In this document: piece by piece, positions 15,971 to 30,009 of the stretch | How positions within the stretch are numbered: position 1 is the stretch's first letter | Layout of the letters: every line of letters starts with the position of its first letter | Assembly: GCA_963785415.1 (NCBI GenBank) | Contig: CAWAVB010000001.1 | Location: forward strand, 483,579 to 547,578 | DNA: 64,000 bases | Reading direction: 5' to 3' | From: an uncultured Acidimicrobiaceae bacterium | GTDB taxonomy: Bacteria; Actinomycetota; Acidimicrobiia; Acidimicrobiales; Bog-793 | Position numbers and translations under genes: made by a program | The notes under the pieces: generated by a model | The model's input: the letters and a program-made list of their open reading frames with translations, nothing else | The model's database searches: none | Told to the model about the DNA's origin: nothing

Positions 15971-17398
15971 TCAGTCCACCCCGACGAGCGTCTTCACCGC
16001 GGCGATGATCGCCCGCAGGCCGGCCTGGGCGTCGGCAAAGAACATGCCGGTCTTCGGGTCGTTGTAGAGCTCGTTGTCGATCCCGGCGTAGCCGTGGCCC
16101 ATCGAGCGCTTGATGACGATGATGCTCTTCGCCTTGTCGACGTCGAGGATCGGCATGCCCGACACGGCGTTGCCGGGTCTGCGGGCCGCCGGGTTCGTCA
16201 CGTCGTTCGCCCCGATGACGAGGGCGACGTCGGCGCGGGGGAACTCGGGGTTGATCTCCTCCATCGTCTTGAGTTGCTGATAGGGAACCTCGGCCTCGGC
16301 GAGCAGGACGTTCATGTGGCCCGGCATCCGTCCGGCGACCGGGTGGATCGCGTAGGAGACCTCGATGCCCCGCTTCTCGAGCAAGTCGGCCAGCTCCTTC
16401 ACCGCGTGCTGGGCGTGCGCCGCGGCGAGCCCGTAGCCCGGGACGATGATCACCTTCTGCGCGTAGGCGAGCTGGATCGCGACGTCGTCGGCTCCGACCG
16501 AGCGCACCTGGCCGCCCGCACCGGCGCCGATGACGCTCGCCGTGTCGCCCGTGCCGAACCCGCCCGCGACGATGTTGAGGATCGACCGGTTCATCGCGTC
16601 GGCCATCAACTTCGTGAGGATGCTCCCCGAGGCGCCGACGAGCGCGCCGGCGATGATGAGGCCGACGCTGTTGATCACAAATCCAGCCATCGCAACGGCC
16701 GTGCCGGTGAAGGCGTTGAGCAGCGAGATCACGACCGGCATGTCCGCGCCGCCGATCGGCAGGACCATGATCACGCCCATGACGAGGGAGGCGATCGCGA
16801 TCCCGATCAGCGTGATGTCGCTGTTCGCCCCCGACAGGATGTACCCGGTCCCCGCGCACAGTGCCAGCGCGAGCACGAGGTTCACGATGCGCCCAGAGGG
16901 GACGACGATCGGCTCGGACGGGATGAAGCCCTGCAGCTTGCCCGCCGCGACGACCGAGCCCGAGAGCGTCACGGCGCCGATCACGACGTCAAGGACGCTC
17001 GTCACCGAAATGCGCGCCGCGATCGTCGGGGCGTGGAGGATCCCGGCGAGCCGGACGAAGTCGGCGATCGCGACGAGCGCCGCCGCCCCGCCGCCGACGG
17101 CGTTGAACAAGCTGACGAGCTGCGGCATCGCCGTCATCTCGACGGTCCGGGCGAGGTAGAGCCCGAGACCGGAGCCGAGCACCCCGCCCACGGCGAGCAT
17201 CAGCCAGCCGGTGGTCGAGATCGTCCCGTCGTGGGCGATGAGGGCGAGCGTCGCCGCCACGGCGACCGCCATGCCGAGCGCGGAGAGCCGGTTGCCGTGG
17301 TCCGCCGTCGGCGGGGCGTTCATGAGATGGAGCCCGATGACGAAGCACGTCGCCGAGGCCAGGTAGATGAGAGCGATGACGTCGTTGAAGGTGCCCAT
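15971..17398 (-). CDS. pntB: NAD(P) transhydrogenase subunit beta
   Basis: 475 aa. N-terminal polytopic membrane domain plus C-terminal NADP(H)-binding domain (IIVPGYGLAAAHAQH, VLLAEAEVPY, VIGANDVTNP). Confidence 0.95.
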   Translation of the reverse strand: MGTFNDVIALIYLASATCFVIGLHLMNAPPTADHGNRLSALGMAVAVAATLALIAHDGTISTTGWLMLAVGGVLGSGLGLYLARTVEMTAMPQLVSLFNAVGGGAAALVAIADFVRLAGILHAPTIAARISVTSVLDVVIGAVTLSGSVVAAGKLQGFIPSEPIVVPSGRIVNLVLALALCAGTGYILSGANSDITLIGIAIASLVMGVIMVLPIGGADMPVVISLLNAFTGTAVAMAGFVINSVGLIIAGALVGASGSILTKLMADAMNRSILNIVAGGFGTGDTASVIGAGAGGQVRSVGADDVAIQLAYAQKVIIVPGYGLAAAHAQHAVKELADLLEKRGIEVSYAIHPVAGRMPGHMNVLLAEAEVPYQQLKTMEEINPEFPRADVALVIGANDVTNPAARRPGNAVSGMPILDVDKAKSIIVIKRSMGHGYAGIDNELYNDPKTGMFFADAQAGLRAIIAAVKTLVGVD

Positions 17399-17724
17399 CA
17401 GGACTTGCCTCCGTCCTCGGTCGCCTCGCTCCGCGCCGCCGCCGGTCGGCGTTGGAACATCTTCAGCATGCGGTCGGTGACCGTGTAGCCCCCGACGACG
17501 TTCATGCCCGCGAACACCGCGGCGATGAAGGCGAGCGTGTAGCCCACCGCGTCGTGCGCCGTCGAGGCGATGAGGAACGCCCCGATGATGACGACGCCGT
17601 GAATGGAGTTCGCCGCCGACATCAACGGTGTGTGGAGCGTCTGGGGGACCTTGGAGATCACCTCGAACCCCACGAGAAGACTGAGCACGAAGATCGTGAC
17701 ATCAGTGATCAGACTCGTATCCAT
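17398..17724 (-). CDS. pntAB: NAD(P) transhydrogenase subunit alpha part 2 (membrane)
   Basis: 108 aa with three or four TM helices. LHTPLMSAANSIHGVV motif. One-nt overlap with the pntB start. Confidence 0.88.
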   Translation of the reverse strand: MDTSLITDVTIFVLSLLVGFEVISKVPQTLHTPLMSAANSIHGVVIIGAFLIASTAHDAVGYTLAFIAAVFAGMNVVGGYTVTDRMLKMFQRRPAAARSEATEDGGKS

Positions 17725-17728
17725 CGAC

Positions 17729-18967
17729 TCAAGCTCCGTTCACTAGAGACTTGCTTGCTGCCTGCCCCGCGAGTTCCGCCGTCGCGGAGTTGACCACCTT
17801 GCCCCCGGAGGTGATCACGACGCCCACCTGGATCTCGTCGGCGAGGTCGACGACGACCTTGCCGTCCTTCACGAGGTGCGTGAAGAGCGCGCAGATGTTG
17901 TGCGAATACGCCGTAGAGGCGCCGTTCGCCATCGTCGAGGCCAGGTTGCCCGCCCCGATGACCGTGACGCCGTTCGCGGTAACGACGGTCTCGTCGGGGC
18001 GGGACGCCTCGACGTTGCCGCCGAGGGAGCTCGCCGCCATGTCGACGATCACCGACCCGGCACCCATCGCCGATACGGCGTCGGCGGTGACAAGGAGCGG
18101 CGGGCGGCGTCCGGGCACCTGCGCCGTCGTGATCACGACGTTGTGCTGCGCGACGTACCCGTTCAGCTCCTCCTGCTGCGCCTTCGACTCCTCGGCGGTG
18201 AGAGCACGCGCATAGCCACCCTCGCCGACCGCCTCGGCGACCGATTTCAGCTCGACGAAGCGCCCGCCAAGCGACTCGACCTGTTCTTTCGCCTCGGGAC
18301 GGACGTCATAGCCCCGGACGATCGCCCCGAGCCGGTGCGTCGTCGCGATCGCCTGCAGACCGGCGACACCGGCGCCGAGGACGAGCACCTCCGCGGGTCG
18401 GACCGTCCCCGCCGCCGTCATGAGGAGCGGGTAGTAGCGCCCGTAGGCGTTCGCCGCGACGAGTGCCGCCTTGTAGCCGGCGATGTTCGCCTGCGAACTG
18501 AGGGCGTCCATCGACTGGGCGCGGCTGAGCGTGCGCGGCAGGGTATCGAGGCTCACGGCGGTGACGCCCCGATCGCCGAGACGCACGGCGAACCCGGGGT
18601 CGACGAGCGGGGCGAGCATGCCGATGACGACCTGGTCCGGCCTCAGCTTCTCCACGTCGGCATCGCTCGGGCGTCCGACGTAGAGCATCACGTCAGCGCG
18701 GGCGAGACACGTCGACCGGTCGACGACCTTCGCCCCCGCTCGGGCGTAGGCGTCGTCGAGGAACCACGCCCGCTTGCCGGCGTCCGCCTCGACGATGACG
18801 TCGAAGCCGGCGGACTGGAGCTTCGCCACGTCCCCCGGCACGAGCGCGACCCGGTGCTCGCCCTCGCCGGTCTCGGCGACGACCGCCACCACCGGCGCCG
18901 CGCCGACCGACGGCCTGTCCACCGTCTCTTCTGACGCCGCGGACGGTTCCACCCGATCTGCCATCAT
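17729..18967 (-). CDS. pntAA: NAD(P) transhydrogenase subunit alpha part 1 (NAD(H)-binding, alanine-dehydrogenase fold)
   Basis: ORF 17729..19129 trimmed to the ATGATG at 18967, preceded by a perfect AAGGAGG. VLVLGAGVAGLQAI Rossmann motif. Confidence 0.92.
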   Translation of the reverse strand: MMADRVEPSAASEETVDRPSVGAAPVVAVVAETGEGEHRVALVPGDVAKLQSAGFDVIVEADAGKRAWFLDDAYARAGAKVVDRSTCLARADVMLYVGRPSDADVEKLRPDQVVIGMLAPLVDPGFAVRLGDRGVTAVSLDTLPRTLSRAQSMDALSSQANIAGYKAALVAANAYGRYYPLLMTAAGTVRPAEVLVLGAGVAGLQAIATTHRLGAIVRGYDVRPEAKEQVESLGGRFVELKSVAEAVGEGGYARALTAEESKAQQEELNGYVAQHNVVITTAQVPGRRPPLLVTADAVSAMGAGSVIVDMAASSLGGNVEASRPDETVVTANGVTVIGAGNLASTMANGASTAYSHNICALFTHLVKDGKVVVDLADEIQVGVVITSGGKVVNSATAELAGQAASKSLVNGA

Positions 18968-19086
18968 CACCCTCCTTGGGTGGCCCGAGTCTCCCGGCCA
19001 CCCAACTGGTCGGGCCCGGGCGCACCGCGCGCCCCCGACCCCCGTCTTTCCGATCCAAAGTGGTGCCGCGCCGCAGCTGAATCCCT

Positions 19087-20715
19087 CTAGATCAGCTCCG
19101 GCACCATGACGATCGCACCGCAGGGGCACTCCGCGACGCAGATCCCGCAGCCCTTGCAGTAGTCGTAGTCAAAGGCGTACCGCTCTCCGGCTCCGAGCTT
19201 AGACACTGCGTTGTCGGGGCAGACTCCGTAACAGTTGTCGCACTCGAAACAGTTGCCGCAGGACATGCACCGGCGAGCCTCGAAGAGCGCGTTCGACTCC
19301 GTGAGCCCCCCGACGACCTCTTCGAAGCCGGTCTGGCGCCGTACGGCCTCGAGCTCGGGTTGGACCGTGCGCGGGGCATCCGCGTAGTACCAGGTGTTCA
19401 GGTCCTCGAACGGCGCGAGCTCGTGCCTTTCACCGGCGTGTTCTGGCTCGCCCGTCAGCCAGGCGTCGATCGAGCGGGCCGCCTTCTTGCCGTGCCCGAT
19501 CGCGACGGTGACGGTGCGCTCGGCGCGGACCATGTCGCCCCCGGCGAACACTCCCGGGCACCCCGTCATCATGTGGTCGTCGACGACGACGCCGCCGTCG
19601 TTGACCTCGACCCCCGCGAGGTCGCCGATCGGCGCGACATCGGCCTCCTGGCCGAGGGCGAGAATGACGCAATCGGCGCCGAGCTCGTCGTATTCGCCGG
19701 TCGGTTGGGGGAAACCGGCGGCATCGAGCTCCATCTTCTCGATAACGATCTTGTCCTCGTCGACGCGGGAGATCGTCGAGAGCCACCGCACACTCACTCC
19801 CTCGGCGAGCGCCTCCTCGACCTCGACGTCGTGGGCGGGCATCCGATCGCGGGTGCGGCGGTAGACGATGACCGCCTCGGCCGCGCCGAGGCGTCGCGCC
19901 GAGCGGGCGGCGTCCATTGCCGTGTCGCCACCTCCGTAGACGACGACGCGCCGCCCGATGGCGGCCGGCTCGGCCCCTTCGCTGCTGGCGAGGAACGCCA
20001 GGGCATCGAGGACACGGGCCGAATCGGCGGCCGGAATGTAAGCGCGACGGGACAGCTGCGCGCCGAACGCGAGGTAGACCGCGTTGAAGCCACCCTCTGC
20101 TTTCGCCGCGGCGATATCGGTGACGGCGCGGTTGAGCTCGAGCCCGACGCCGAGGTCGAGGATCGCGCCGATCTCGGCGTCGAGCACCGCCCGGGGCAAC
20201 CGGTAGGCCGGGATGCCGTAGCGCAGCATGCCGCCGGCTGCTGGCGCCGCCTCGTGGATGACGACCTCGTGCCCGAGCCGGGCAAGGTGGTAGGCAGCCG
20301 ACAGGCCCGCCGGGCCGGAGCCCACGACGAGGATCCGGAACTCCGAAGACGCCGCGGGCTCGGGCAGCCGCCAGCGGCCTGACGTTGCGGCATCGCCGAG
20401 GAAGCGCTCGACCGCGTGGATGCCGACCGCCTCGTCGAGACGCGCCCGGTTGCATGCCGTTTCGCAGGGGTGGAAGCAGACCCGGCCGCAGGTCGCCGGC
20501 AGCGGGTTGTCCTCGACAAGCGACCGCCACGCCGCCTCGTACGACCCGGCCTCCGCGTCGTACAGCCAGTGCTGGACGTTCTCCCCGGCCGGACAGGCGT
20601 CGTTGCAGGGGGGAAGGCGGTCGACGTAGACGGGTCGTTCGACGCGCCAGGATCCGGTCAGGTTCGCACGGCTCGACCCGGCCTCGAGCGTGACCGCGAA
20701 CGGGTGCTCGCTCAC
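19087..20715 (-). CDS. GltD-like NAD(P)H-dependent FAD oxidoreductase fused to a C-terminal 2x[4Fe-4S] ferredoxin (PorD-like) domain
   Basis: 542 aa. N-terminal Cys cluster (CNDACPAGENV...CGRVCFHPCETAC), two Rossmann motifs (ILVVGSGPAGLSAA, VVVYGGGDTAMD), and a C-terminal CMSCGNCFECDNCYGVCP...CKGCGICVAECPCGAI. 4-nt overlap with the upstream TPP subunit. Confidence 0.85.
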   Translation of the reverse strand: MSEHPFAVTLEAGSSRANLTGSWRVERPVYVDRLPPCNDACPAGENVQHWLYDAEAGSYEAAWRSLVEDNPLPATCGRVCFHPCETACNRARLDEAVGIHAVERFLGDAATSGRWRLPEPAASSEFRILVVGSGPAGLSAAYHLARLGHEVVIHEAAPAAGGMLRYGIPAYRLPRAVLDAEIGAILDLGVGLELNRAVTDIAAAKAEGGFNAVYLAFGAQLSRRAYIPAADSARVLDALAFLASSEGAEPAAIGRRVVVYGGGDTAMDAARSARRLGAAEAVIVYRRTRDRMPAHDVEVEEALAEGVSVRWLSTISRVDEDKIVIEKMELDAAGFPQPTGEYDELGADCVILALGQEADVAPIGDLAGVEVNDGGVVVDDHMMTGCPGVFAGGDMVRAERTVTVAIGHGKKAARSIDAWLTGEPEHAGERHELAPFEDLNTWYYADAPRTVQPELEAVRRQTGFEEVVGGLTESNALFEARRCMSCGNCFECDNCYGVCPDNAVSKLGAGERYAFDYDYCKGCGICVAECPCGAIVMVPELI

Positions 20716-21725
20716 GTCTGCCCCCCGTCCTCGTCGGTCCCGAGGAGACCGAACCGCCGGATGTTCCGGTCCGCGATCGCCTGGATGCGGGAGATGTCGT
20801 CGGTGCGCGGCGGATCACCGAAGAGGTGGGCGAACCGCCGCTGCGGCCGCAGGTACGCCTCGACCGGGAGGAGGTGGCGGATCGGCGTCGCCTGGAGGAT
20901 CTCGCCGTACGCCGCCTCGAACAACGGGAACAGACCCGTCTCGCAGGCGAGGCGGGCGATGCGGATCGTGTCCTCCGGGGCCGTGCCCCAGCCGAGCGGG
21001 CACGGGACGAGGACGTGGAGATAGCGCGCACCACGCAGGTCCATCGCGCGTCCGACCTTTGCCTCGAGGTCGTGCAGGTCGGCGACGGTGGCCGTGGCGA
21101 CGTAGGGGATCCCGTGCGCGACAGCGAGCAGTGGCAGGCTCTTGCCCTTCCCGAAGGCGTTTCCGGGTTCGCGTCCGACGGCCTCCGTCGTCGCGGTGCG
21201 CGCCGCGGCGGGCGTCGCGCCGGAGCGCTGCACGCCGGTGTTCATGTAGGCCTCGTTGTCGTAGCAGACGAACAGACAGTCGTCGTCACGTTCGAACATC
21301 CCCGACAGACAGCCGAATCCGATGTCCACCGCTCCCCCGTCGCCCGCCACGACGACAACACGGGTCTTCGTGTCACCGGCCGTCTTCAGCGCCGCGGCGA
21401 CCCCTGTTCCGACGGCGGCCGCGTTGCCGAACACCGAGTGGATCCAGGGAACCCGCCACGAAGACTCGGGGAACTGCGTCGAAAAAGCGACCAGACACCC
21501 GGTCGCGTTGACGACGATCATCTGCCCGTCCGTGGCCGCCATCGCGGCGTCGAGCACGTAGCGCGCACCCAGGGCCTGGCCGCATCCCTGGCACGCCCGG
21601 TGACCCGACGTGAGCGAGTTCCAGCGGCCGCGGTCGGACTGCACGGTGCGCTGCTGCGGGTCGACGAGCCGGTTGCCGACCGCGAAACTGCCCACTTGGT
21701 AGAACTTGATCGTCTGCTCTGTCAT
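20712..21725 (-). CDS. 2-oxoacid:ferredoxin oxidoreductase beta (TPP-binding) subunit, substrate unassigned
   Basis: 337 aa with SGHRACQGCG, GDGGAVDIGF, YDNEAYMNTG(V)Q TPP-binding signature. Confidence 0.9.
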   Translation of the reverse strand: MTEQTIKFYQVGSFAVGNRLVDPQQRTVQSDRGRWNSLTSGHRACQGCGQALGARYVLDAAMAATDGQMIVVNATGCLVAFSTQFPESSWRVPWIHSVFGNAAAVGTGVAAALKTAGDTKTRVVVVAGDGGAVDIGFGCLSGMFERDDDCLFVCYDNEAYMNTGVQRSGATPAAARTATTEAVGREPGNAFGKGKSLPLLAVAHGIPYVATATVADLHDLEAKVGRAMDLRGARYLHVLVPCPLGWGTAPEDTIRIARLACETGLFPLFEAAYGEILQATPIRHLLPVEAYLRPQRRFAHLFGDPPRTDDISRIQAIADRNIRRFGLLGTDEDGGQT

Positions 21726-21734
21726 CTCGATCCC

Positions 21735-22988
21735 CTAGACGATCCGCGCCGTCGGCGTGCGCAGGTCGCCGAACACGCGTCCGACGCTCGGTGGGGTGCT
21801 CAAGTCGGCCGCCATCCGGGCGAGCTCCCGGTCGACGGCATCCCGGTCGAGATCGAGGAAGCTCACCGCGCCGAGCTCGCCGCGGATCGCCTCCCCGAGG
21901 ACCCGACGTAGCGACCCTTCGGTGATCGCCCGTCCGCCCAGGCCAGCGACGACCGTGAAGGTTCTCGTCCCTCGATTGGTGACCAACGCGTCAACGTCGG
22001 CACCGAGGATGCCCCGGCTGCCGGCGGCGAGCGCCTTTTCGATGACGACGACCCGGTGGGCGCCTTCGAGCGCCTCGGCGAGCGCCGCCTCCGGGAACGG
22101 CCGGAACGTCGTGAGGTGGACCACGCCGATCTTCGTCCCCTCCTCGCGCATCTGGTCGACGACGTCCTTGGTCGTTCCCACGATGGAGCCCAGCGCGACG
22201 ACGATCGTCTCGGCGTCCTCGCAGCGGTAGGACGAGACGAGGCCCCCGCTCTGACGGCCGACGACACGGCCGAATTCGTCCGCGAGCTCCGGGATCCGGG
22301 CGAGCGCGCCAAGGTGACGCGCCTGGGTGAGGTAACGGGCTTCGGCGTAGGCCTCCGGTCCGACCACTCCCCCGATCGAGACCGGGTCCGCCGGGTCGAG
22401 GATCAGCCGTGGCTCGAACGGCGGCAGAAAGCGGTCGACCTGTTCCTGGGTCGGAATCTCGACCCGTTCCACGGCGTGGGTGAGGGTGAAACCGTCCATG
22501 CAGACCATCACGGGCAGGCTGAGTTCCTCGGCGAGGCGGAAGGCCTGGATGTGAAGGTCGACGGCGTGCTGGTTCGTCTCGGCGAACAGCTGGATCCAGC
22601 CGGCGTCCCGCAAGGCCATCGCGTCGGAGTGGTCGTTCCAGGAGTTGACCGGCGCCCCCACGGCCCGGTTGGCGACGGTCATCACGATCGGCAGCCCGAG
22701 CCCGGCGGCGTTGAAGACCGCTTCCGTCATGTAAAGCAGTCCCTGGCTCGACGTCGCGGTGTAGGTCCGAGCCCCGGTGGCCGAGGCGCCGATCAGCACG
22801 GAGATCGCCGCGAATTCGGACTCGACGTTGATGAATTCGCACGGCTTGAGCCGCCCGGATTTCACCAGCGTCCCGGCGCCTTCGATGATGTGGGTCTGCG
22901 GCGAGATCGGGTAGGCGCAAACGACCCGAGGGCGACACAAGGCAACCGCTTCCGCGACGGCGCGTGAGCCCTCAATCTGGCGAAGCAC
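21735..22988 (-). CDS. 2-oxoacid:ferredoxin oxidoreductase alpha subunit
   Basis: 417 aa with EGSRAVAEAV..., YPISPQTH, TATSSQGLLYM. Confidence 0.9.
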   Translation of the reverse strand: MLRQIEGSRAVAEAVALCRPRVVCAYPISPQTHIIEGAGTLVKSGRLKPCEFINVESEFAAISVLIGASATGARTYTATSSQGLLYMTEAVFNAAGLGLPIVMTVANRAVGAPVNSWNDHSDAMALRDAGWIQLFAETNQHAVDLHIQAFRLAEELSLPVMVCMDGFTLTHAVERVEIPTQEQVDRFLPPFEPRLILDPADPVSIGGVVGPEAYAEARYLTQARHLGALARIPELADEFGRVVGRQSGGLVSSYRCEDAETIVVALGSIVGTTKDVVDQMREEGTKIGVVHLTTFRPFPEAALAEALEGAHRVVVIEKALAAGSRGILGADVDALVTNRGTRTFTVVAGLGGRAITEGSLRRVLGEAIRGELGAVSFLDLDRDAVDRELARMAADLSTPPSVGRVFGDLRTPTARIV

Positions 22989-23592
22989 CGACGGTCCTCC
23001 TTTGACTTATTTGGTGCGCCACAAGTGCTTCCGGGCCGGCGCGCGTCTGGTTGAACGCCTCGGTCACCGCGGCGACGTTCCCGTCGCGCATCGCCCCCGA
23101 GAAGCGCTCCTCGATGGCGGCGATGACGGCCGCAAGTGAAACGACACCGGTCAACGCGGCAAGACCGCCGAGCATCACCGCGTTCGGTAACGGCCGACCG
23201 AGGTGTGCGATCGCGATCTCAGTTGCCCGGAGCGACAGGACGTGGTTGGCGGGCAGATCCTTGGCGATCCCCGCGACGCCGAGCTCTTCCAGGGTCTTCG
23301 CGGTATTGACGACCACGTAGCCTTGGGGTTTCAGACCCGAGAACAACCCCAGCCCGTGCAGCAGCGTCGCATCCTGGATTACGAGCGCGTCTGGTTCGTC
23401 GATCGGCGCGCGCGTCCTGATCTCGCGTTCACTGATCCGGCAGAACGACGCAACCGGCGCACCGCTGCGTTCTGCGCCGAAGCTCGGGAAGGCCTGGGCG
23501 TGACGGCCGTCGTTGAACGCCGCGACGGCCAACAGTTCCGCCGCGGTCACCACCCCCTGCCCACCGCGTCCATGGAACCGAACCTGGAACAT
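22972..23592 (-). CDS. 2-oxoacid:ferredoxin oxidoreductase gamma subunit
   Basis: 206 aa starting MFQVRFHGRGGQGVVTAAELLA, with SFGAERSGAP. Confidence 0.88.
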   Translation of the reverse strand: MFQVRFHGRGGQGVVTAAELLAVAAFNDGRHAQAFPSFGAERSGAPVASFCRISEREIRTRAPIDEPDALVIQDATLLHGLGLFSGLKPQGYVVVNTAKTLEELGVAGIAKDLPANHVLSLRATEIAIAHLGRPLPNAVMLGGLAALTGVVSLAAVIAAIEERFSGAMRDGNVAAVTEAFNQTRAGPEALVAHQISQRRTVGASPD

Positions 23593-23800
23593 CCGCAGCC
23601 TCGCCGTCCGCCCACTAGACGCCTAGCTCGAGCACCGCCCCTCGATCTGGTCGCTTCCTTGGCCCGATGGTCGCGTCGGCCAGCCGCGTTGACCAGGGCC
23701 GATGGTCACATGCCCCCCGGTGCTTTGGCCCGGAATCCCCTTCTCGGGAATGGGTCCACCGGCCCTTCCGTGGCGACGAGCCGCGCCCTAACGTGTCGGC

Positions 23801-24952
23801 GTGCCTTCCCCTGATGGTGTCGTCATCGATCCAGACGGGGTCGACTCGCTCATCGCATCGCTTCGGGCCCAGGGCTACCGCGTCGTGGGACCCGTCGTGT
23901 CCAACGGTGCCATCGTCCATCGCGAGATCCAGTCCGTCGAGGATCTCCCGAAGGGCTGGCATGACGAACAGCGACCCGGTTCGTACCGCATCAGTCACGG
24001 CGACGACCAGGAGCTGTTCGGATGGGCGGTCGGTCCCGAATCGTTCAAGCAGTCGGTCTTCCCCTCCCGGGCGGTGCTGTGGCGCGCCCGACGCGACGGA
24101 GGTGAGGTCGCGGTCGAGGCGGAGGTCGACGACGCCCCGCGCGAGGCGTTCTTCGGGGCCCGCCCGTGCGAGGTCGCGGCGCTCGACGTCCTCGGCGGCG
24201 TGCTCGCCGGGGCGGCCCGTCCCGATCCCGTCTTCACCCGCCGGCGCGACGCGGCCTTCGTCGTCACCGTGGAGTGTGGCACTCCCGCGGCGACCTGCTT
24301 CTGCACCTCGATGGGCTCCGGCCCCGCGGCTGGGGGGAACTTCGACCTCGCGCTCACGGAGCTCGCCGGGCCCGATCACCGCTTCCTCGTACACGTGGGA
24401 TCGGAGCGGGGCGGCGCCGTGCTCGCCGGGATCGCCTCGCGGCCCGCGACCGCCGACGACGCGAAGGCCCGCGACGCGGTCGTCGGCCGCGCTGAGTCCG
24501 CCATCAGCCGGACGCTCGACGCCGCCGCAGCCCCGGGGCTGCTCGCGCGCAACCTCGAGCACCCGCGCTGGGACGACGTCGCCAGCCGCTGTCTCGCCTG
24601 CGGGAACTGCACGCTCGTGTGCCCGACCTGCTTCTGCGCTGCCGTCGAGGAGAAGACCGACCTCTCCGGCACCGCTGAGCAGATCCGCCGCTGGGACTCG
24701 TGCTTCGACCTCGCCCACTCCTATCTACACGGCGGTTCGGTCCGCGTCTCGACGCGATCCCGCTACCGCCAGTGGATGACCCACAAGCTCTCGACTTGGG
24801 TCGACCAGTTCGGGAACTCGGGTTGCATCGGTTGCGGGCGCTGCATCACGTGGTGTCCGGTGGGCATTGACATCACCGAGGAGCTCGCCGCGATCGCGGC
24901 GAGCGACGGCGCGGTGAAAAAGGACGAACCCGCTGCGGTTCGGGACAGGTAG
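23801..24952 (+). CDS. hyhB: group-3b hydrogenase / sulfhydrogenase beta-type Fe-S subunit (AsrA-like)
   Basis: 383 aa with Cys clusters CGTPAATCFCTS, CLACGNCTLVCPTCFC and CIGCGRCITWCP. First gene of the hydrogenase operon. Confidence 0.8.
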   Translation: MPSPDGVVIDPDGVDSLIASLRAQGYRVVGPVVSNGAIVHREIQSVEDLPKGWHDEQRPGSYRISHGDDQELFGWAVGPESFKQSVFPSRAVLWRARRDGGEVAVEAEVDDAPREAFFGARPCEVAALDVLGGVLAGAARPDPVFTRRRDAAFVVTVECGTPAATCFCTSMGSGPAAGGNFDLALTELAGPDHRFLVHVGSERGGAVLAGIASRPATADDAKARDAVVGRAESAISRTLDAAAAPGLLARNLEHPRWDDVASRCLACGNCTLVCPTCFCAAVEEKTDLSGTAEQIRRWDSCFDLAHSYLHGGSVRVSTRSRYRQWMTHKLSTWVDQFGNSGCIGCGRCITWCPVGIDITEELAAIAASDGAVKKDEPAAVRDR

Positions 24953-24954
24953 GC

Positions 24955-25425
24955 GTGATGGAAGAGATGAGCGATCTCATCGCCAAGAATTCGTTGTTCG
25001 CCGGTCTCCCCGACTCGACGATCGAGCTCGCCGTCGGGTGCGCGCAGAACGTCGCGTTCGAGCCCGGAGCCCGCATCCTGGTCGAAGGCGAGCCGGCCGA
25101 CACCTTGTACCTCCTGCGGCGCGGACGGGTCGCCCTTCAGGTGCAGCGTCCGTCCGGCAAGCCCCTCGTCATCGAGACGATCGGCCCGAACAGCGTGCTC
25201 GGCTGGTCCTGGCTCGTTCCGCCGTACCGCTGGCAATTCGACGGCGTGGCGATCGACCCGGTCGGCGCCGTCGCCATCGACGGCACGTGCTTGCGCGCCA
25301 AGGCCGACGCCGACTCGGTGTTCGGCTACGCGCTCCTGCAGCGCATCAGCGGCGTCCTGCTCAGCCGCCTGCAATCGACACGCGTCCGTCTCCTCGACCT
25401 CTACGGGCACAGCCTTGATGACTGA
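24955..25425 (+). CDS. stand-alone cyclic-nucleotide-binding (cNMP/CAP effector) domain protein, no DNA-binding domain
   Basis: 156 aa. LFAGLPDSTIELAVGCAQNVAFEPGARILVEGEPADTLYLLRRGRVALQV...GPNSVLGWSWL follows the beta-barrel pattern of cNMP-binding domains. Starts 3 nt after the hyhB stop and overlaps the hyhG start. Confidence 0.75.
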   Translation: MMEEMSDLIAKNSLFAGLPDSTIELAVGCAQNVAFEPGARILVEGEPADTLYLLRRGRVALQVQRPSGKPLVIETIGPNSVLGWSWLVPPYRWQFDGVAIDPVGAVAIDGTCLRAKADADSVFGYALLQRISGVLLSRLQSTRVRLLDLYGHSLDD

Positions 25426-26263
25426 AGCCACACTGACGAAGCCCGGGCCGTTCGTGCCCTCCCGATACCGCGTCGTGGACCGCAAAGTGGAGACGTTCGA
25501 CATCACGACGCTGTGGCTCGAACCGGTCGATCAGCCGATCGACGCCTTCAAGGCGGGGCAGTTCAACATGCTCACGGCGTTCGGGGTCGGCGAGATCGCC
25601 ATCTCCATCAGCTCGGCGCCGGGCGCGCCGGGCGCGATCGAGCACACCGTCCGTGACGTGGGCGCCGTGAGCCACGCGCTCTCGCAGTCCGCGGTGGGTG
25701 ACATCGTCGGTGTGCGCGGACCGTTCGGCACCGACTGGGGTCTCGACACCCTCGACGGTGTCAACGTCGTCGTCGTCGCCGGCGGCATCGGACTCGCGCC
25801 GCTGCGCGGCGCCATGCGCTACCTCGCCGAGAACAAGTCGCCGAAGCGCGCCGTCGCCCTGCGCGTCGGGGCCCGGCTCCCGGACCAGATCGTCTTCCCC
25901 GACGAGATCGCCCGCTGGGGCGAGATGGGCCTCGACGTCGCGGTGACGGTCGATGTCGCCGACGCCGGGTGGACCGGCCAGGTCGGCGTCGTCACCCAGA
26001 TCCTCGCCGAGCTCCCCTTCGACGGTGCAGGCGCGATCGCACTCGTCTGCGGACCAGAGATCATGATGCGCTTCAGCGCGCGGTCCCTCGTCGACCTCGG
26101 CGTCGCACCGGAGAACATCCGGGTGTCGCTCGAGCGCAACATGCAGTGCGGCATCGCGATGTGCGGGCACTGCCAACTCGGGCCGTACCTGCTGTGCCGG
26201 GACGGGCCGGTCGTCCCCTATGCGCCGCTTGCGGCGGAGCTGATCACGGAGAGCGAACGATGA
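25415..26263 (+). CDS. hyhG: group-3b hydrogenase gamma-type subunit (FAD/NAD(P)-binding, PyrK-like, C-terminal 2Fe-2S)
   Basis: 282 aa with FNR-like fold motifs (AGQFNML, VVVAGGIGLAPL) and C-terminal CGIAMCGHCQLGPYLLC. Confidence 0.85.
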   Translation: MMTEATLTKPGPFVPSRYRVVDRKVETFDITTLWLEPVDQPIDAFKAGQFNMLTAFGVGEIAISISSAPGAPGAIEHTVRDVGAVSHALSQSAVGDIVGVRGPFGTDWGLDTLDGVNVVVVAGGIGLAPLRGAMRYLAENKSPKRAVALRVGARLPDQIVFPDEIARWGEMGLDVAVTVDVADAGWTGQVGVVTQILAELPFDGAGAIALVCGPEIMMRFSARSLVDLGVAPENIRVSLERNMQCGIAMCGHCQLGPYLLCRDGPVVPYAPLAAELITESER

Positions 26264-27033
26264 CGAGTCGACCGACGCTTGCGGTGTGGAAGTTCGCCTC
26301 GTGCGACGGCTGCCAGCTCGGCATCCTCGACTGCGAGGACGAGCTCCTCCAACTCGCGCAGGCCGTGCAGATCGCCAGCTTCACCGAGATGACGAGCGCA
26401 GTGATCGAGGGCCCCTACGACGTCTCGCTCGTCGAGGGATCGATCACGACCCCCGACGATGCCGACCGGATCCTCGCGGTGCGCGCCGCCTCGGGACTTC
26501 TCGTCACGATCGGGGCGTGCGCGACGGCCGGCGGGATCCAGGCGCTCCGCAACTACGCCAACGTCGGCGAGTACACCTCGACCGTCTACGCGCATCCGGA
26601 GTACATCTCGACCCTCGCCGAGAGCAGCCCGATCTCGTCATACGTCCAGGTCGACGTCGAACTGCGCGGCTGCCCGATCAACCGCCTCCAGCTCGTCGAG
26701 GTCGTCACCGCGCTGCTCGCCGGCCGCCGCCCGGTCATCCCCGGCTACAGCGTCTGCGAGGAGTGCAAGACGGCCGGCAATCTCTGCGTCCTCGTCGCCC
26801 ACGGGACACCGTGCCTCGGCCCGGTGACCCGCGCCGGGTGCGGCGCCCTCTGCCCGGCGGTGAACCGCGGCTGCTACGGCTGCTTCGGCCCGGCGAACAC
26901 GACGAACACCGGGTCGCTGTCGAAGCGGCTCGCCGATCTCGGCCTGTCCGACCGGGGGGTGTCGCGGATGTTCCGGACCTTCAACTCCGCCGCGACCGAG
27001 TTCTCAAAGGAGAGTCTCGAGCATGACGCCTAG
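26260..27033 (+). CDS. hyhS: NiFe hydrogenase small (delta-type) subunit
   Basis: ORF 25969..27033 trimmed to ATG 26260 (ATGA overlap with the hyhG stop). FASCDGCQL, GACATAGGIQ, and C-terminal Cys-rich CEECK...CLGPVTRAGCGALCP...CYGCFG. Confidence 0.9.
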   Translation: MTSRPTLAVWKFASCDGCQLGILDCEDELLQLAQAVQIASFTEMTSAVIEGPYDVSLVEGSITTPDDADRILAVRAASGLLVTIGACATAGGIQALRNYANVGEYTSTVYAHPEYISTLAESSPISSYVQVDVELRGCPINRLQLVEVVTALLAGRRPVIPGYSVCEECKTAGNLCVLVAHGTPCLGPVTRAGCGALCPAVNRGCYGCFGPANTTNTGSLSKRLADLGLSDRGVSRMFRTFNSAATEFSKESLEHDA

Positions 27034-28330
27034 CGGACCCAACGCGAACCGCACGATCGACGTCCACGGCCTTGCCCGGGTCGAAGGCGAAGGGTCGCTC
27101 CACGTCGCGATCCACGACGGGGCCCTCGAACGCGTCGAGCTCGAGATCTTCGAGCCGCCGCGCTTTTTCGAGGCCTTCCTCGTCGGCCGGGGCTACGAGG
27201 AGCCGCCGGACATTACGGCGCGCATCTGCGGGATCTGCCCTGTCGCCTACCAGATGTCCGCCTGCGCGGCAATCGAGGACGCCTGCGGCGTCACGGTCCC
27301 CGAGTCGATCGGCAAGCTCCGGCGCCTTTTGTACTGCGGTGAGTGGATCCAGAGCCACGCCCTCCACATCTACCTGCTCCACGCCCCGGACTTCTTCGGC
27401 TGCCGCGACGCCGTCGAGCTCGCCGCGCTGAACCCGGCCGCCGTCGAGCGCGGCCTGCGCCTAAAAAAGACCGGCAACCACCTCATGGAACTGGTCGGTG
27501 GACGGGCGATCCACCCCGTCAACGTCCGCATCGGGGGTTTCTACCGCTCCCCCGAACGCGCCGAGATCGCCGCGATGATCGAGCCGCTCCGACGCGCCCG
27601 GGAGGAGTCGCTCGAGACGATCGCCTGGGTCGCCGGCTTCGAGTTCCCCGAGATCGAGGCGGATTACCGCTTCGTGGCGCTTTCACACCCCGACCACTAC
27701 GCGATCGAGGCGGGCCGGGTCGTGTCCTCCGACGGGATCGACGCCACCCCCGGCGAGTTCACCGACGTGGCCGTCGAGGAGCACGTCGCCCGCTCGTCGG
27801 CGCTGCACTCCCGGCTGCGCGGTCGCGACCCATACCTCACTGGCCCGCTCGCCCGCTACGCGCTCAACGGGTCGAAGCTGCCCAAAGCGGCGCGTGACGC
27901 GGCCGCCGAGGCGGGTCTCGGTCCGGTGTGCGCGAACCCGTTCAAGAGCATCATCGTGCGGGCCGTCGAGCTCTACTTCGCCTGCGACGAGGCGCTGCGG
28001 CTCGCGACCGAGTACGAACCGCCCGAGCCCGCGGCCGTCCCGGTCCCGCCCCGGGCCCGCGTCGGAGCCGGGGCGACCGAGGCCCCCCGCGGCATGCTCC
28101 TGCAGCGTTACGAGCTCGACGCCGAGGGGACGATCCAATCGGCGCGCATCATGCCCCCGACGTCGCAGAACCAGCTGACGATCGAGTCCGACGTCCGCCA
28201 GGTCGTCGCCTCCGGCCTCGAGCTCGGCGACACCGAGCTCACGGCCCGCTGTGAGCTCGCCGTGCGCAACCACGATCCGTGCATCTCGTGCGCCGCCCAC
28301 TTCCTCGACGTGTCGATCGACCGCTCATGA
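27023..28330 (+). CDS. hyhL: NiFe hydrogenase large (alpha) subunit, group 3b-like
   Basis: 435 aa. N-terminal RICGICPVAYQ and C-terminal DPCISCAAH Ni-Fe ligand cysteine pairs. Overlaps the hyhS end by 11 nt. Confidence 0.95.
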   Translation: MTPSGPNANRTIDVHGLARVEGEGSLHVAIHDGALERVELEIFEPPRFFEAFLVGRGYEEPPDITARICGICPVAYQMSACAAIEDACGVTVPESIGKLRRLLYCGEWIQSHALHIYLLHAPDFFGCRDAVELAALNPAAVERGLRLKKTGNHLMELVGGRAIHPVNVRIGGFYRSPERAEIAAMIEPLRRAREESLETIAWVAGFEFPEIEADYRFVALSHPDHYAIEAGRVVSSDGIDATPGEFTDVAVEEHVARSSALHSRLRGRDPYLTGPLARYALNGSKLPKAARDAAAEAGLGPVCANPFKSIIVRAVELYFACDEALRLATEYEPPEPAAVPVPPRARVGAGATEAPRGMLLQRYELDAEGTIQSARIMPPTSQNQLTIESDVRQVVASGLELGDTELTARCELAVRNHDPCISCAAHFLDVSIDRS

Positions 28331-28773
28331 CCACGCGTGTCGTCGTCGCCGGGATCGGCAACGCCTTCCGCCGCGACGACGGTGCCGGGCCCGCCGTCGC
28401 CCAGGTCGTTGCCGCCTCCACCGGAGCGGTCGACATCGGCCCGATCGGCGAGCCCCTCGACCTCCTCGGCCGGTGGGAGACGGCGGACCTCGCCGTCCTC
28501 GTCGACGCGACCCGCTCCGACGCCGTGGCCGGAACGGTCCGGCTCGTTGAACTCGGCGACGCCGTCGACCGGCCGAGCCAGAGCACGCACGCCATCGGCC
28601 TCGACCGCGTCGTCCGGCTCGCCCAGGTGCTGCGGAGCGCCCCGGCCCGAGTCGTCGTCGTCGGCATCGAAGGGGAGGACTTCTCCGACGGGGAAGGCCT
28701 CTCCCCCGCCGTCTCCGACGCCGTGCCCGCGGCGGCACGCCGCATCGCCGAGCTCATCGCCGAGGCGTCATGA
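28327..28773 (+). CDS. hydrogenase maturation endopeptidase (HycI/HoxW family)
   Basis: ORF 28279..28773 trimmed to ATG 28327 (ATGA overlap with the hyhL stop). VVVAGIGNAFRRDDGAG matches the GxGNxxxxDDGxG signature. Confidence 0.85.
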   Translation: MTTRVVVAGIGNAFRRDDGAGPAVAQVVAASTGAVDIGPIGEPLDLLGRWETADLAVLVDATRSDAVAGTVRLVELGDAVDRPSQSTHAIGLDRVVRLAQVLRSAPARVVVVGIEGEDFSDGEGLSPAVSDAVPAAARRIAELIAEAS

Positions 28774-29046: not shown

Positions 29047-30009
29047 GTGGCCAACTCGAACACGACAACAGGCAAGACCCGCCTTCCCGGACTGTACGTC
29101 GCCGGCGCCACGGCGATCATCAGCGGCATCTCGGTCTTCACGAACAGCTACGGCGTAAAGAGCTTCGCCTCCCCCGCCGTCTACACGACGGCGAAGAACC
29201 TCGCGGCGACGCTCGTCATCGCCGCGTTCGTCGTCGTCGCCTGGCGGGCGACCCGTCGGCCGGCCGCGGCGTCGATCCCCGTGGTCCCGTCCGGGTCGGG
29301 CCCGCGCCCGCTCGCCGGTGCCGCCCGGCTCGCCGGCTTCGCCTACGTCGCCGCGATCGGCGGCGGCGCGGCGTTCATCTTCTTTTTCGACGGGCTCGCC
29401 CGCACCTCGGCGGTGCCGGCGGTCTTCCTCCACGACACGCTCGTCATCTGGGTCGCCCTCGCCGCGCTCCCGCTCCTCGGCGAGCGCGTCGGGCGCTGGA
29501 ATCTCGCGGCGATCGCCCTGCTCGTCGTCGGTGTCACGCTGACCTCGGGCGGCGTCGGCCACCTCGCACTCAACTCGGGCAACGCCCTCGTGCTCGGCGC
29601 GACGGTGCTCTGGGCGATCGAGACGGTCATCGCCAAGCGGCTGCTCCGCGGCGTCGGGCCGTCGACGCTCGCCCTCGTGCGGATGGGCGGCGGCGCCGTC
29701 GTGCTCGTCGGCTACCTCGCGGCGACGGGCCAGTTCCACGCGCTCGTCGGGCTCGATGCCGCCGAACTGCGCTGGGCGCTCGTCACCGGCTGCCTGCTCG
29801 GCGGCTACGTGGCGACCTGGATGACCGCGCTCAGCCGGGCCCGCGCCGTCGACGTCACCTCGGTCCTCGTCGCCTCCGCGGCGGTCACGCTCTTCCTCGA
29901 CGCCGCCATCCACCACTCCGGACTCGCCTCCGACACCGTCGGGCTCGTGCTGCTCGCCCTCGGCGTCGCCGCCGTCGTGCGGGCCTGGCCCCGAGTCGCC
30001 CGCGCGTGA
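29047..30009 (+). CDS. EamA/DMT-superfamily transporter (10 predicted TM segments)
   Basis: 320 aa. Two internally similar five-helix halves, hydrophobic throughout. Starts 8 nt after the hypC stop. Confidence 0.78.
   Translation: MANSNTTTGKTRLPGLYVAGATAIISGISVFTNSYGVKSFASPAVYTTAKNLAATLVIAAFVVVAWRATRRPAAASIPVVPSGSGPRPLAGAARLAGFAYVAAIGGGAAFIFFFDGLARTSAVPAVFLHDTLVIWVALAALPLLGERVGRWNLAAIALLVVGVTLTSGGVGHLALNSGNALVLGATVLWAIETVIAKRLLRGVGPSTLALVRMGGGAVVLVGYLAATGQFHALVGLDAAELRWALVTGCLLGGYVATWMTALSRARAVDVTSVLVASAAVTLFLDAAIHHSGLASDTVGLVLLALGVAAVVRAWPRVARA

What the first reader, a model, noticed from the sequence alone, without database searches (positions are those of the whole stretch)
24955..25425. 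Stand-alone cyclic-nucleotide-binding-domain protein embedded inside the NiFe hydrogenase structural operon
A 156-aa protein sits between the Fe-S subunit hyhB and the FAD/NAD(P) subunit hyhG. It consists only of a cNMP/CAP-effector-type beta-barrel (LFAGLP...FEPGARILVEGEPADTLYLLRRGRVAL...) and has no helix-turn-helix. It starts 3 nt after the hyhB stop, and its stop overlaps the hyhG start, so it should be co-translated with the enzyme subunits. That position suggests a ligand-sensing accessory subunit or allosteric regulator of a soluble NAD(P)-linked hydrogenase rather than a transcription factor. I know of no biochemical characterisation of such a subunit.
Basis: partly seen in the sequence, partly recalled or inferred. 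Interest (0 to 1): 0.62.

Follow-up and report, generated by a model that had tools for sequence, protein, structure and literature searches.

The report
Fifth subunit candidate of bacterial hydrogenase
A small sensor-like protein with no DNA-binding part is encoded inside the operon of an NAD(P)-linked hydrogenase in hundreds of bacterial species and is sometimes fused to one enzyme subunit, so it is very probably an overlooked, uncharacterised accessory subunit rather than a gene regulator.

Summary
Window 24955/24958-25425 (+) encodes a 155-156 aa protein that is only a CRP-type cNMP-binding domain plus a long C-helix, with no helix-turn-helix. It lies between hyhB and hyhG of a group 3b [NiFe]-hydrogenase operon. 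It is not a local oddity. At least 595 species genomes carry a relative. In 76 of the 80 best loci, from about 14 phyla, the order is hyhB-cNMP-hyhG-hyhS-hyhL. Where hyhB and hyhG are fused, a sister cNMP gene sits directly upstream (7 of 7 loci). Natural fusions exist on many independent contigs: cNMP-HyhG and cNMP-cNMP-HyhG. This argues for a dimeric accessory subunit on the HyhB/HyhG diaphorase module. The canonical cyclic-nucleotide contacts (Glu and Arg-Ser/Thr of the phosphate-binding cassette) are replaced by a GWSWLxPPYRWxFDARA motif, so cAMP or cGMP is an unlikely ligand. The closest known analogue is HoxI of the Cupriavidus necator soluble hydrogenase, a characterised cNMP-domain dimer and NADPH activation site. 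HoxI is no closer in sequence than E. coli CRP, so the recruitment looks convergent. Three papers mention the gene in passing; none characterises it. Interest is moderate: a new variant of a known kind.

The parts
23801..24952 (+). hyhB: Fe-S (AsrA/HydB-like, beta) subunit of the diaphorase module
   Evidence: Pfam Fer4_22 at E=5e-31. Best PDB match is sulfhydrogenase 1 subunit beta, 9nez_B, at E=1.6e-33. NCBIfam ShyB/HydB/AsrA are the best hits but fall below their cutoffs.
24955..25425 (+). Stand-alone CRP-type cNMP-domain protein with no HTH, 155-156 aa. The probable start is ATG 24958. Family motif G83-W-S-W-L-V-P-P-Y-R-W-Q-F-D-G-V-A99; C-helix R138-L-Q-S-T-R143...D148-L-Y150.
   Evidence: PF00027 at E=6.7e-11. 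AF2 pLDDT 90.8, barrel plus helix 121-150. Foldseek to GlxR and Mtb CRP effector domains. 1879 homologues of about 155 aa. Conserved motif.
25418..26263 (+). hyhG: FAD/NAD(P)-binding, [2Fe-2S] (AsrB/HydG-like, gamma) subunit. Its start overlaps the stop of the cNMP gene.
   Evidence: Pfam NAD_binding_1 plus DHODB_Fe-S_bind. NCBIfam AsrB and sulfhydrogenase gamma are the best hits. A 100% identical protein is recorded in an Acidimicrobiales MAG.
26260..27033 (+). hyhS: hydrogenase small (delta) subunit. ATGA overlap with hyhG.
   Evidence: Pfam Oxidored_q6 at E=3e-21. NCBIfam ShyD/HydD are the best hits. The 246-aa ORF at 26286-27026 is an Arg-rich ORF in another reading frame of this gene.
27023..28330 (+). 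hyhL: [NiFe] large (alpha) subunit, group 3b type
   Evidence: Pfam NiFeSe_Hases. PDB sulfhydrogenase 1 alpha, 9nez_D, at E=7e-63. NCBIfam ShyA/HydA are the best hits.
28279..28773 (+). Hydrogenase maturation endopeptidase (HycI/HyaD-like), the last gene of the operon core
   Evidence: Pfam HycI at E=1.2e-10. Found after hyhL in most related loci.
23593..23800 (.). 209-bp divergent intergenic region between the hyh operon and the minus-strand por / gltD-like / pnt genes. It is the presumed promoter region (inferred only).
   Evidence: Gene coordinates. No sigma-70 consensus match was found.

Best explanation
The gene encodes a non-catalytic accessory subunit of the bacterial group 3b (Hyh, NAD(P)-linked) [NiFe]-hydrogenase. 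It is a CRP-type effector domain that has lost the DNA-binding domain. It most likely forms a homodimer through its long C-helix, as CRP and HoxI do. It most likely docks on the HyhB/HyhG diaphorase module, at or near the N-terminus of HyhG. Its pocket keeps the C-helix side of the CRP ligand site (R138, L139, Q140, T142 align with CAP R123, L124, Q125, T127). The cyclic-phosphate and ribose contacts are replaced by a Trp-rich motif. I therefore infer that it binds a small molecule other than cAMP or cGMP. The most economical guess, by analogy with HoxI, is an adenine-containing redox nucleotide such as NAD(P)H. On this view it tunes activation, direction or stability of the enzyme after translation. 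Shown: domain identity, lack of HTH, operon position, conservation, fusions, loss of the canonical cNMP residues. Inferred: physical binding, dimer stoichiometry, ligand, regulatory effect.
For: 1. Synteny. At least 595 species genomes encode a relative. In 76 of the 80 best loci the order is hyhB-cNMP-hyhG-hyhS-hyhL, in about 14 phyla.
2. Junctions. A start codon lies within 20 nt of the upstream stop in 63 of 73 hyhB/cNMP junctions and 68 of 73 cNMP/hyhG junctions. The modal arrangement is a 4-nt overlap.
3. Conservation. The protein is as conserved as the diaphorase subunits: mean identity to the window is 49% for cNMP, 51% for HyhB and 49% for HyhG.
4. Retention across architectures. In operons where HyhB and HyhG are one polypeptide, a 156-161 aa sister cNMP gene sits immediately upstream in 7 of 7 loci examined: Sorangium, Chloroflexota, Exilibacterium, Limnocylindrales, Planctomycetes and two metagenomic contigs, one of which (L088) is called fused to hyhBG, probably through a frameshift error. 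These score 109-133 bits against the family profile.
5. Fusions to HyhG. cNMP-HyhG fusions are recurrent: P0426 has 30 member sequences on 7 contigs; P0269 occurs in two JGI samples with 1406 of 1407 nt identical, flanked by hyhB and hyhS; P0453 is more divergent and has a different linker.
6. Double fusion. P0391 is cNMP-cNMP-HyhG. It occurs on 12 contigs from ENA, NCBI and Logan, in two of the three places shown inside intact hyhB-...-hyhS-hyhL operons (in the third the genes after it are called differently), which implies two cNMP domains per HyhG.
7. Fold. No HTH; CRP effector fold with a long C-helix.
8. Precedent. [quoted passage not shown]
Against: There is no direct biochemical evidence.
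- AlphaFold2 of the natural cNMP-HyhG fusion gave two confident domains joined by a roughly 30-residue low-confidence linker. pTM was only 0.65, so no interface is predicted.
- Archaeal sulfhydrogenase is known as a four-subunit enzyme, and only its hydrogenase subunits turned up in the PDB searches. The M. smegmatis Hyd3 cluster, as annotated, has beta and gamma as adjacent genes. The subunit is therefore dispensable for the core chemistry.
- About 5% of family members are orphans away from any hyh gene: 4 of 80 loci, plus a Streptomyces plasmid copy in a dormancy-like neighbourhood.
- HyhB-cNMP fusions are only singletons in loci that lack hyhS and hyhL, and several apparent triple fusions are frameshift artefacts.
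- The ligand proposal rests on analogy and on residue substitutions only.
Confidence: 0.6

Rival explanations
1. It is a purely structural scaffold. The cNMP-like domain is a ligand-less 'fossil' that only dimerises or stabilises the HyhB/HyhG module, for example by bridging two HyhBGSL protomers through a C-helix coiled coil. It has no sensing role.
For: The canonical cNMP-binding residues are lost throughout the family. Tandem cNMP-cNMP and cNMP-cNMP-HyhG fusions emphasise dimer formation. The most conserved residues include the C-helix.
Against: The replacement motif in the former binding cassette (G-W-S-W...P-P-Y-R-W-x-F-D) is itself the most conserved part of the protein. G83, S85, W86 and P90 are invariant in 49 diverse sequences. 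The C-helix Thr that contacts adenine N6 in CAP is retained. That pattern fits a remodelled pocket or interface better than a decayed one.
Confidence: 0.2
2. It is a genuine cAMP or cGMP receptor subunit that couples hydrogenase activity to second-messenger levels.
For: The Pfam cNMP_binding hit is above threshold. The closest solved structures are cAMP-binding CRP/GlxR proteins. Several loci lie in dormancy or hypoxia-type gene neighbourhoods where cAMP signalling is plausible.
Against: The Glu that binds the ribose 2'-OH is Trp, Leu, Val, Ala or Ile in the 229 sequences whose motif could be read. Of the 229 sequences where the family motif could be read, none has Glu there. A separate pattern search of the same set found a canonical GE[LIVMF][ASG] cassette in four sequences; I did not check whether those four are true family members. 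The Arg-Ser/Thr that binds the cyclic phosphate aligns with Trp93-Gln94 in the Mtb CRP alignment, or Gln94 and a gap in the E. coli CRP alignment. The neighbouring Arg92 is not invariant.
Confidence: 0.08
3. It is a transient assembly or maturation factor, or a detachable regulator, for the diaphorase module and is not part of the mature enzyme.
For: [quoted passage not shown] The core enzyme works without it in archaea. The gene stays a separate polypeptide even where hyhB and hyhG have fused.
Against: Covalent fusion to HyhG in several lineages, including a double-domain fusion, means the domain stays attached to the mature subunit there.
Confidence: 0.08
4. It is a transcriptional regulator or co-regulator of the hyh operon, as its database names suggest ('CRP/FNR family transcriptional regulator', or 'small transcriptional regulator' in the Frankia paper).
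For: Source annotations and PMC11879354 use such names. Orphan copies exist away from hyh genes.
Against: There is no DNA-binding domain: the protein ends with the C-helix. The gene lies between two structural genes with overlapping stop and start codons. It is fused to the FAD/NAD(P) subunit in several lineages.
Confidence: 0.04

Closest known systems
HoxI of the Cupriavidus necator (Ralstonia eutropha) H16 soluble NAD+-reducing [NiFe]-hydrogenase (group 3d; pHG1, L001:14836-15339)
   Same: Both are small proteins (167 aa against 156 aa) made of a cNMP-binding domain only. Both are encoded in the operon of a cytosolic NAD(P)-linked [NiFe]-hydrogenase. HoxI is a homodimer bound to the diaphorase module and provides an NADPH activation site (PMC3702609, PMC3189943). 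The cNMP-cNMP-HyhG fusion suggests the same two-copies-on-the-diaphorase arrangement here.
   Different: They are not orthologous. BLASTP gives E=0.61. The Hyh-family profile scores HoxI at 40 bits, the same as E. coli CRP at 38 bits, against 109-224 bits for hyh-linked proteins. HoxI keeps the Gly-Glu of the binding cassette; the Hyh family has Gly-Trp. hoxI lies after the protease gene, not between diaphorase genes. Its partner is the Complex-I-like HoxFU, not the AsrAB-like HyhBG. HoxI has not been reported beyond some group 3d enzymes (the Hydrogenophaga enzyme lacks it). The Hyh protein is present in at least 595 species genomes.
CRP/FNR-family transcription factors (E. coli CAP, M. tuberculosis CRP, C. 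glutamicum GlxR)
   Same: They share the effector-domain fold and are the closest sequence and structure matches: phmmer E about 4e-11, Foldseek E about 3e-12, TM about 0.75. The C-helix motif RLQxT is shared.
   Different: There is no winged-helix DNA-binding domain. The cAMP-contacting Glu and Arg-Ser/Thr are replaced. The gene is embedded in, and sometimes fused to, enzyme subunit genes.
Pyrococcus furiosus sulfhydrogenase I (HydBGDA) and M. smegmatis Hyd3, the studied group 3b enzymes
   Same: HyhB, HyhG, HyhS and HyhL of the window are their homologues.
   Different: Both are treated in the literature as four-subunit enzymes, and the solved sulfhydrogenase chains found here carry the alpha and beta names. 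The M. smegmatis cluster, as annotated, has beta (MSMEG_3931) directly followed by gamma (MSMEG_3930). The window's type has a fifth conserved gene.

Membership tests
Pfam PF00027 cNMP_binding / CRP-type effector-domain fold | Significant match to the family HMM above the gathering threshold | tested here: met
   42.5 bits against a cutoff of 27.5, E=6.7e-11, residues 34-115.
Pfam PF00027 cNMP_binding / CRP-type effector-domain fold | Eight-stranded beta-barrel with a short cassette helix, followed by a long C-helix | tested here: met
   AF2 model with pLDDT 90.8, strands 30-109, helix 84-87, helix 121-150. Foldseek probability 1.0 to GlxR, CRP and PKA domains.
Functional cyclic-nucleotide receptors (CAP, PKA-R, CNG/HCN type) | Phosphate-binding cassette with Gly-Glu (ribose 2'-OH) and Arg-Ser/Thr (cyclic phosphate) | tested here: not met
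   Glu is replaced by Trp84 (W in 201 of 229 sequences, otherwise L, V, A or I). The Arg-Thr of Mtb CRP aligns with Trp93-Gln94.
CRP/FNR transcription factors | C-terminal winged helix-turn-helix DNA-binding domain | tested here: not met
   The protein ends 6 residues after the C-helix. There is no HTH Pfam hit, and homologues are uniformly about 155 aa.
HoxI (soluble hydrogenase accessory subunit) | Specific sequence relatedness to C. necator HoxI | tested here: not met
   BLASTP E=0.61. The family profile scores HoxI at 40.0 bits and E. coli CRP at 38.1 bits.
HoxI (soluble hydrogenase accessory subunit) | Small cNMP-domain-only protein encoded with the structural genes of a cytosolic NAD(P)-linked [NiFe]-hydrogenase | tested here: met
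HoxI (soluble hydrogenase accessory subunit) | Homodimer physically bound to the diaphorase module | tested here: inconclusive
   The evidence is indirect only: recurrent cNMP-HyhG and cNMP-cNMP-HyhG fusions. AF2 of a fusion did not give a confident interface (pTM 0.65). Biochemistry is needed.
HoxI (soluble hydrogenase accessory subunit) | Confers NADPH-dependent activation of the oxidised enzyme | not testable with these tools
   This needs enzyme assays with and without the subunit.
Group 3b [NiFe]-hydrogenase (the operon it belongs to) | Large and small subunits closest to sulfhydrogenase alpha and delta, with an AsrA/AsrB-like beta/gamma diaphorase pair | tested here: met
   PDB 9nez alpha at E=7e-63 and beta at E=1.6e-33. 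NCBIfam Shy/Hyd A, B, D, G are the best hits but below their equivalog cutoffs.
Group 3b [NiFe]-hydrogenase (the operon it belongs to) | HydDB classification by the L1/L2 motifs of the large subunit | not tested
   HydDB is not available here.

The most novel reading that the evidence does not exclude
Bacterial group 3b hydrogenases are, as a rule, five-component enzymes. A dimer of a remodelled CRP-type domain, recruited independently of HoxI, sits on HyhG/HyhB. It acts as a post-translational metabolite or redox-nucleotide switch, using a ligand other than cAMP or cGMP, that gates activation or direction of H2/NAD(P)H exchange. If so, two unrelated soluble hydrogenase classes (3b and 3d) converged on the same regulatory solution, and the 'hyhBGSL' model taken from archaea and M. 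smegmatis is incomplete for most bacteria.
Probability: 0.35. Interest if true: 0.65.

Novelty: new variant of a known kind. Interest (0 to 1): 0.5.

Why it matters
Group 3b hydrogenases are among the most widespread cytosolic hydrogenases in soil and sediment bacteria. They are invoked for fermentative H2 release under hypoxia and for H2-driven NAD(P)H supply. They are modelled on the four-subunit archaeal enzyme. A fifth, near-universal bacterial component with a sensor fold would change how these enzymes are purified, since HoxI-like subunits fall off easily. It would also change how they are modelled and how they are engineered for NAD(P)H recycling. It would give a concrete handle on how their activity is controlled after translation. 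In addition, it corrects a common annotation ('CRP/FNR transcriptional regulator') and the assumption that the protein is a HoxI orthologue.

Tried and rejected
1. HoxI orthology, as stated in PMC12319191, is rejected: BLASTP E=0.61, and the family-profile score equals that of E. coli CRP.
2. HyhB-cNMP and triple fusions are not usable as fusion evidence for physical association. P0121, P0122, P0169, P0358 and P0436 show garbled junctions typical of frameshift errors in long-read assemblies. P0129 and P0231 have clean junctions, but each is a singleton in a locus that lacks hyhS and hyhL. I gave them little weight. Only the recurrent cNMP-HyhG fusions are used.
3. AF2 on the natural fusion P0426, run to see whether the domains dock, was inconclusive: pTM 0.65 and a disordered linker at 152-181.
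4. A Fe-S or FNR-like sensor is rejected: the two Cys residues (C29, C112) are not conserved in diverse members.
5. No dedicated NCBIfam model exists; all hits are far below their cutoffs.
6. Conserved neighbours were sought around the four orphan copies; none are shared.
7. The promoter and terminator scan of the operon found nothing above chance.
8. Some resources were unavailable. The AFDB50 fold library was not on the machine. The original HoxI paper (Burgdorf 2005) is not held. No paper on the sulfhydrogenase structure was found.
9. The 49-sequence alignment was too diverse for the locus scan, so a 10-sequence alignment was used instead.

Full report
OBSERVATION. The window is 72% G+C. 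On the + strand there is a run of genes with high third-position GC:
- hyhB, 23801-24952 (Fer4_22 Fe-S protein);
- the finding, 24955-25425;
- hyhG, 25418-26263 (NAD_binding_1 plus DHODB_Fe-S_bind);
- hyhS, 26260-27033 (Oxidored_q6);
- hyhL, 27023-28330 (NiFeSe_Hases);
- a HycI-type protease, 28279-28773.

The large subunit's best solved relative is P. furiosus sulfhydrogenase I alpha (E=7e-63). HyhB matches the sulfhydrogenase beta subunit (E=1.6e-33). The operon is therefore group 3b-like.

The 156-aa product hits PF00027 at 42.5 bits (cutoff 27.5) and nothing else. The closest homologues start at MEEM, so ATG 24958 is the likely start. The hyhB stop lies 2-5 nt upstream. The hyhG ATG overlaps the stop of the cNMP gene.

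THE PROTEIN. AlphaFold2 with 66 homologues gives a confident model (pLDDT 90.8). It has an N-terminal helical turn, a beta-barrel, a short cassette helix (84-87) and one long C-helix (121-150), after which the chain ends. Foldseek and phmmer place it next to the effector domains of GlxR and M. tuberculosis CRP at about 25-29% identity. No winged-helix domain is present.

The family has a sharply conserved signature, G-W-S-W-[LIV]-x-P-P-Y-R-W-x-F-D-A-R-A, where canonical receptors have G-E-L-...-R-[ST]-A:
- The Glu that binds the ribose 2'-OH is Trp in 201 of 229 sequences, otherwise Leu, Val, Ala or Ile.
- The Arg-Thr of Mtb CRP aligns with Trp93-Gln94.
- The adjacent Arg92 is frequent but not invariant.

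In contrast, the C-helix stretch R138-L-Q-x-T142 aligns with CAP R123-L-Q-V-T127. That this Thr contacts adenine N6 in CAP is from my own knowledge of CAP; the alignment is. I read this as a remodelled pocket, not a decayed one. cAMP or cGMP is an unlikely ligand. The two Cys residues are not conserved, so an FNR-like cluster is excluded.

DISTRIBUTION AND CONTEXT.
- Homologues are numerous and uniform in length: 1879 hits among the scored candidates of the 5.8-billion-protein collection, and 75 representative clusters at E<=1e-30.
- Of the 80 best loci, 76 have hyhB immediately upstream and hyhG immediately downstream, followed by hyhS, hyhL and usually the protease wherever the contig allows. 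Going by the record titles these come from Actinomycetota, Pseudomonadota, Dormibacterota, Armatimonadota, Bacteroidota and Ignavibacteria, Zixibacteria, Binatia, Acidobacteriota, Chloroflexota, Verrucomicrobiota, Nitrospinota, Planctomycetota, Gemmatimonadota and Clostridia.
- The same order is annotated on Burkholderia, Paraburkholderia, Pandoraea and Rhodococcus plasmids.
- A start codon lies within 20 nt of the upstream stop in 63 of 73 and 68 of 73 junctions. The mode is a 4-nt overlap.
- The protein evolves at the pace of the diaphorase subunits: 49% mean identity to the window, against 51% for HyhB and 49% for HyhG. HyhS (64%) and HyhL (59%) are more conserved.
- Four of the 80 loci are orphans with no shared neighbours. 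A Streptomyces plasmid copy lies among universal-stress-protein, CBS-domain and GAF-kinase/response-regulator genes.

A SECOND ARCHITECTURE. Searching with a concatenated HyhB+cNMP+HyhG query showed that many bacteria fuse HyhB and HyhG into one polypeptide of about 650 aa without a cNMP domain. I looked up seven such loci:
- Sorangium;
- two Chloroflexota (one of them Limnocylindrales);
- Exilibacterium;
- Planctomycetes;
- two metagenomic contigs.

All seven carry a 156-161 aa cNMP_binding gene directly upstream, usually overlapping the hyhBG start, and are followed by hyhS and hyhL. These proteins are a sister subfamily: 28-43% identity to the window protein and 109-133 bits against the family profile. 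They share the G-W-S and the C-terminal RLxxTRLQLxDxxG motifs. The partnership therefore survives a change of gene order. That is hard to explain unless the protein works with the HyhB/HyhG module.

FUSIONS. A second concatenated query (cNMP+HyhG) recovered a clade of genuine cNMP-HyhG fusion proteins:
- P0426: 466 aa, 30 member sequences, 7 contigs.
- P0434: 19 member sequences.
- P0269: found in two JGI samples whose genes differ at 1 of 1407 nt, flanked by hyhB and hyhS.
- P0453: more divergent, with a different linker.
- P0391: cNMP-cNMP-HyhG, 613 aa, on 12 contigs from ENA, NCBI (GCA_003164475.1) and Logan, within hyhB-[fusion]-hyhS-hyhL-hycI-hypC.

Stand-alone tandem cNMP-cNMP proteins also exist. 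These fusions are the strongest available evidence that the domain is physically part of the HyhG-containing complex, and that the functional unit contains two copies.

By contrast, apparent HyhB-cNMP or triple fusions are unreliable. Several show garbled junctions typical of frameshift errors in long-read assemblies. The two clean ones are singletons in loci without hyhS or hyhL. An AF2 run on P0426 gave two confident domains joined by a disordered linker of about 30 residues (pTM 0.65). No interface can be claimed from it.

MECHANISM.
- Best-supported: a non-catalytic, probably dimeric accessory subunit docked on the diaphorase (HyhB/HyhG) module.
- Inferred: its remodelled pocket binds a non-cyclic ligand. 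By analogy with HoxI this could be NAD(P)H or another adenine nucleotide. It would modulate activation, direction or stability.
- Dispensable for the core chemistry: archaeal sulfhydrogenase is treated as a four-subunit enzyme, and the M. smegmatis Hyd3 cluster is annotated beta-gamma-delta-alpha without an intervening gene.
- Rivals: a ligand-less scaffold, a true cNMP receptor, a transient assembly factor, and a transcription (co)regulator. They are weighed in the dedicated fields. The last is essentially excluded by the missing HTH and the fusions.

COMPARISON WITH WHAT IS KNOWN. The nearest functional precedent is HoxI of the C. necator soluble hydrogenase (group 3d). HoxI is a cNMP-domain homodimer bound to HoxFU, an NADPH activation site, and is lost at high ionic strength (PMC3702609, PMC3189943). 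I retrieved hoxI from pHG1. It is not specifically related: BLASTP E=0.61, and the family profile gives 40.0 bits against 38.1 for E. coli CRP. HoxI also keeps the Gly-Glu that the Hyh family lacks. The resemblance is functional and probably convergent. The protein is not a HoxI family member.

The gene's presence has been mentioned in passing for Frankia ('small transcriptional regulator', PMC11879354), Rhodococcus equi (PMC13332983) and an alphaproteobacterial methanotroph (there called HoxI, PMC12319191). I found no comparative or biochemical study in the searchable library, and there is no dedicated NCBIfam model.

VERDICT. The feature is real, conserved and widespread. The 'cyclic-nucleotide' ligand is doubtful, and the claim that nothing comparable has been characterised is wrong because of HoxI. 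I rate it a new variant of a known kind. Interest is about 0.5: not a major surprise for specialists, but a concrete, testable gap in the standard model of a very common enzyme.

Noticed in passing
window 15971-23592 (minus strand): Head-to-head with the hyh operon lies a redox-balancing gene set. It comprises 2-oxoacid:ferredoxin oxidoreductase gamma, alpha and beta (22972-23592, 21735-22988, 20712-21725), a GltD/NfnB-like Fer4_20+Pyr_redox_2 protein with an extra 2x[4Fe-4S] tail (19087-20715), and the transhydrogenase genes pntAA, pntAB and pntB (15971-19129). The por plus gltD-like block also neighbours hyh in L015, L028 and L066, and pnt does so in L045. The link is recurrent but not universal.
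   Followed up: partly
window 29047-30009; L007, L008, L012, L016, L017, L022, L025, L026, L033, L042, L045, L055, L057, L078, L080; L088: An EamA-family transporter gene follows the hydrogenase protease in the window, in 15 of the 80 related loci (going by the record titles, mostly Actinomycetota) and in L088. A DUF6390 gene follows hypC in L088 and L095-L097. Their function in this context is unknown.
   Followed up: partly
L002 3392-5848, L004 1859-4168, L087 1686-4448: A PEP synthase / PPDK-like gene sits just upstream of the hyh operon in Burkholderia, Rhodococcus and Sorangium, three distant lineages.
   Followed up: no
L011, L013, L018, L085 (match at about 7001-7460 in each); L003 7001-7453: Orphan copies of the same cNMP family (46-58% identity to the window protein) occur away from any hyh gene in Acidimicrobiales and other Actinomycetota, with no shared neighbours. 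A Streptomyces plasmid copy (158 bits against the family profile) lies among USP, CBS-domain and GAF-kinase/response-regulator genes. Whether they serve a hydrogenase encoded elsewhere is unknown.
   Followed up: partly
proteins P0241, P0248, P0310, P0385 (no locus fetched): A related family has 2-5 tandem cNMP-like repeats (motif GWGAVVEPHVYTASAWT) followed by a conserved C-terminal region of unknown function.
   Followed up: no
L005 6001-8437; L006 6001-8340: Two loci carry a HyhB-cNMP fusion followed by hyhG, but no hyhS or hyhL was detected. One is followed by small ORFs without Pfam hits, the other by an integrase gene. They may be decaying or rearranged loci, or a stand-alone diaphorase module.
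   Followed up: partly
L089 8869-9998: In a Chloroflexota MAG a second hyhBG-fusion gene begins right after the first hydrogenase operon, so the hyh modules are duplicated in tandem.
   Followed up: no
window 26286-27026 (+) and 24763-25506 (-): Long ORFs in wrong frames overlap real genes: an Arg-rich 246-aa ORF inside hyhS and a 247-aa antisense ORF across the cNMP gene. I take them to be non-coding ORFs of the kind high-GC DNA produces.
   Followed up: yes
P0121, P0122, P0169 (L088), P0358, P0436; loci L016, L030, L037, L056, L078: Many hyh genes from some metagenome assemblies (long-read ones, judging by their contig names) are broken or artificially fused, apparently by frameshifts. These can mimic domain fusions in protein databases.
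   Followed up: partly
window 33095-33637, 34493-35812, 11745-15533: Elsewhere in the window are an HNH endonuclease gene, a DinB/ImpB-type polymerase gene, and the start of a division/cell-wall gene cluster (mraZ, mraW, a PBP transpeptidase). They are unrelated to the finding.
   Followed up: no
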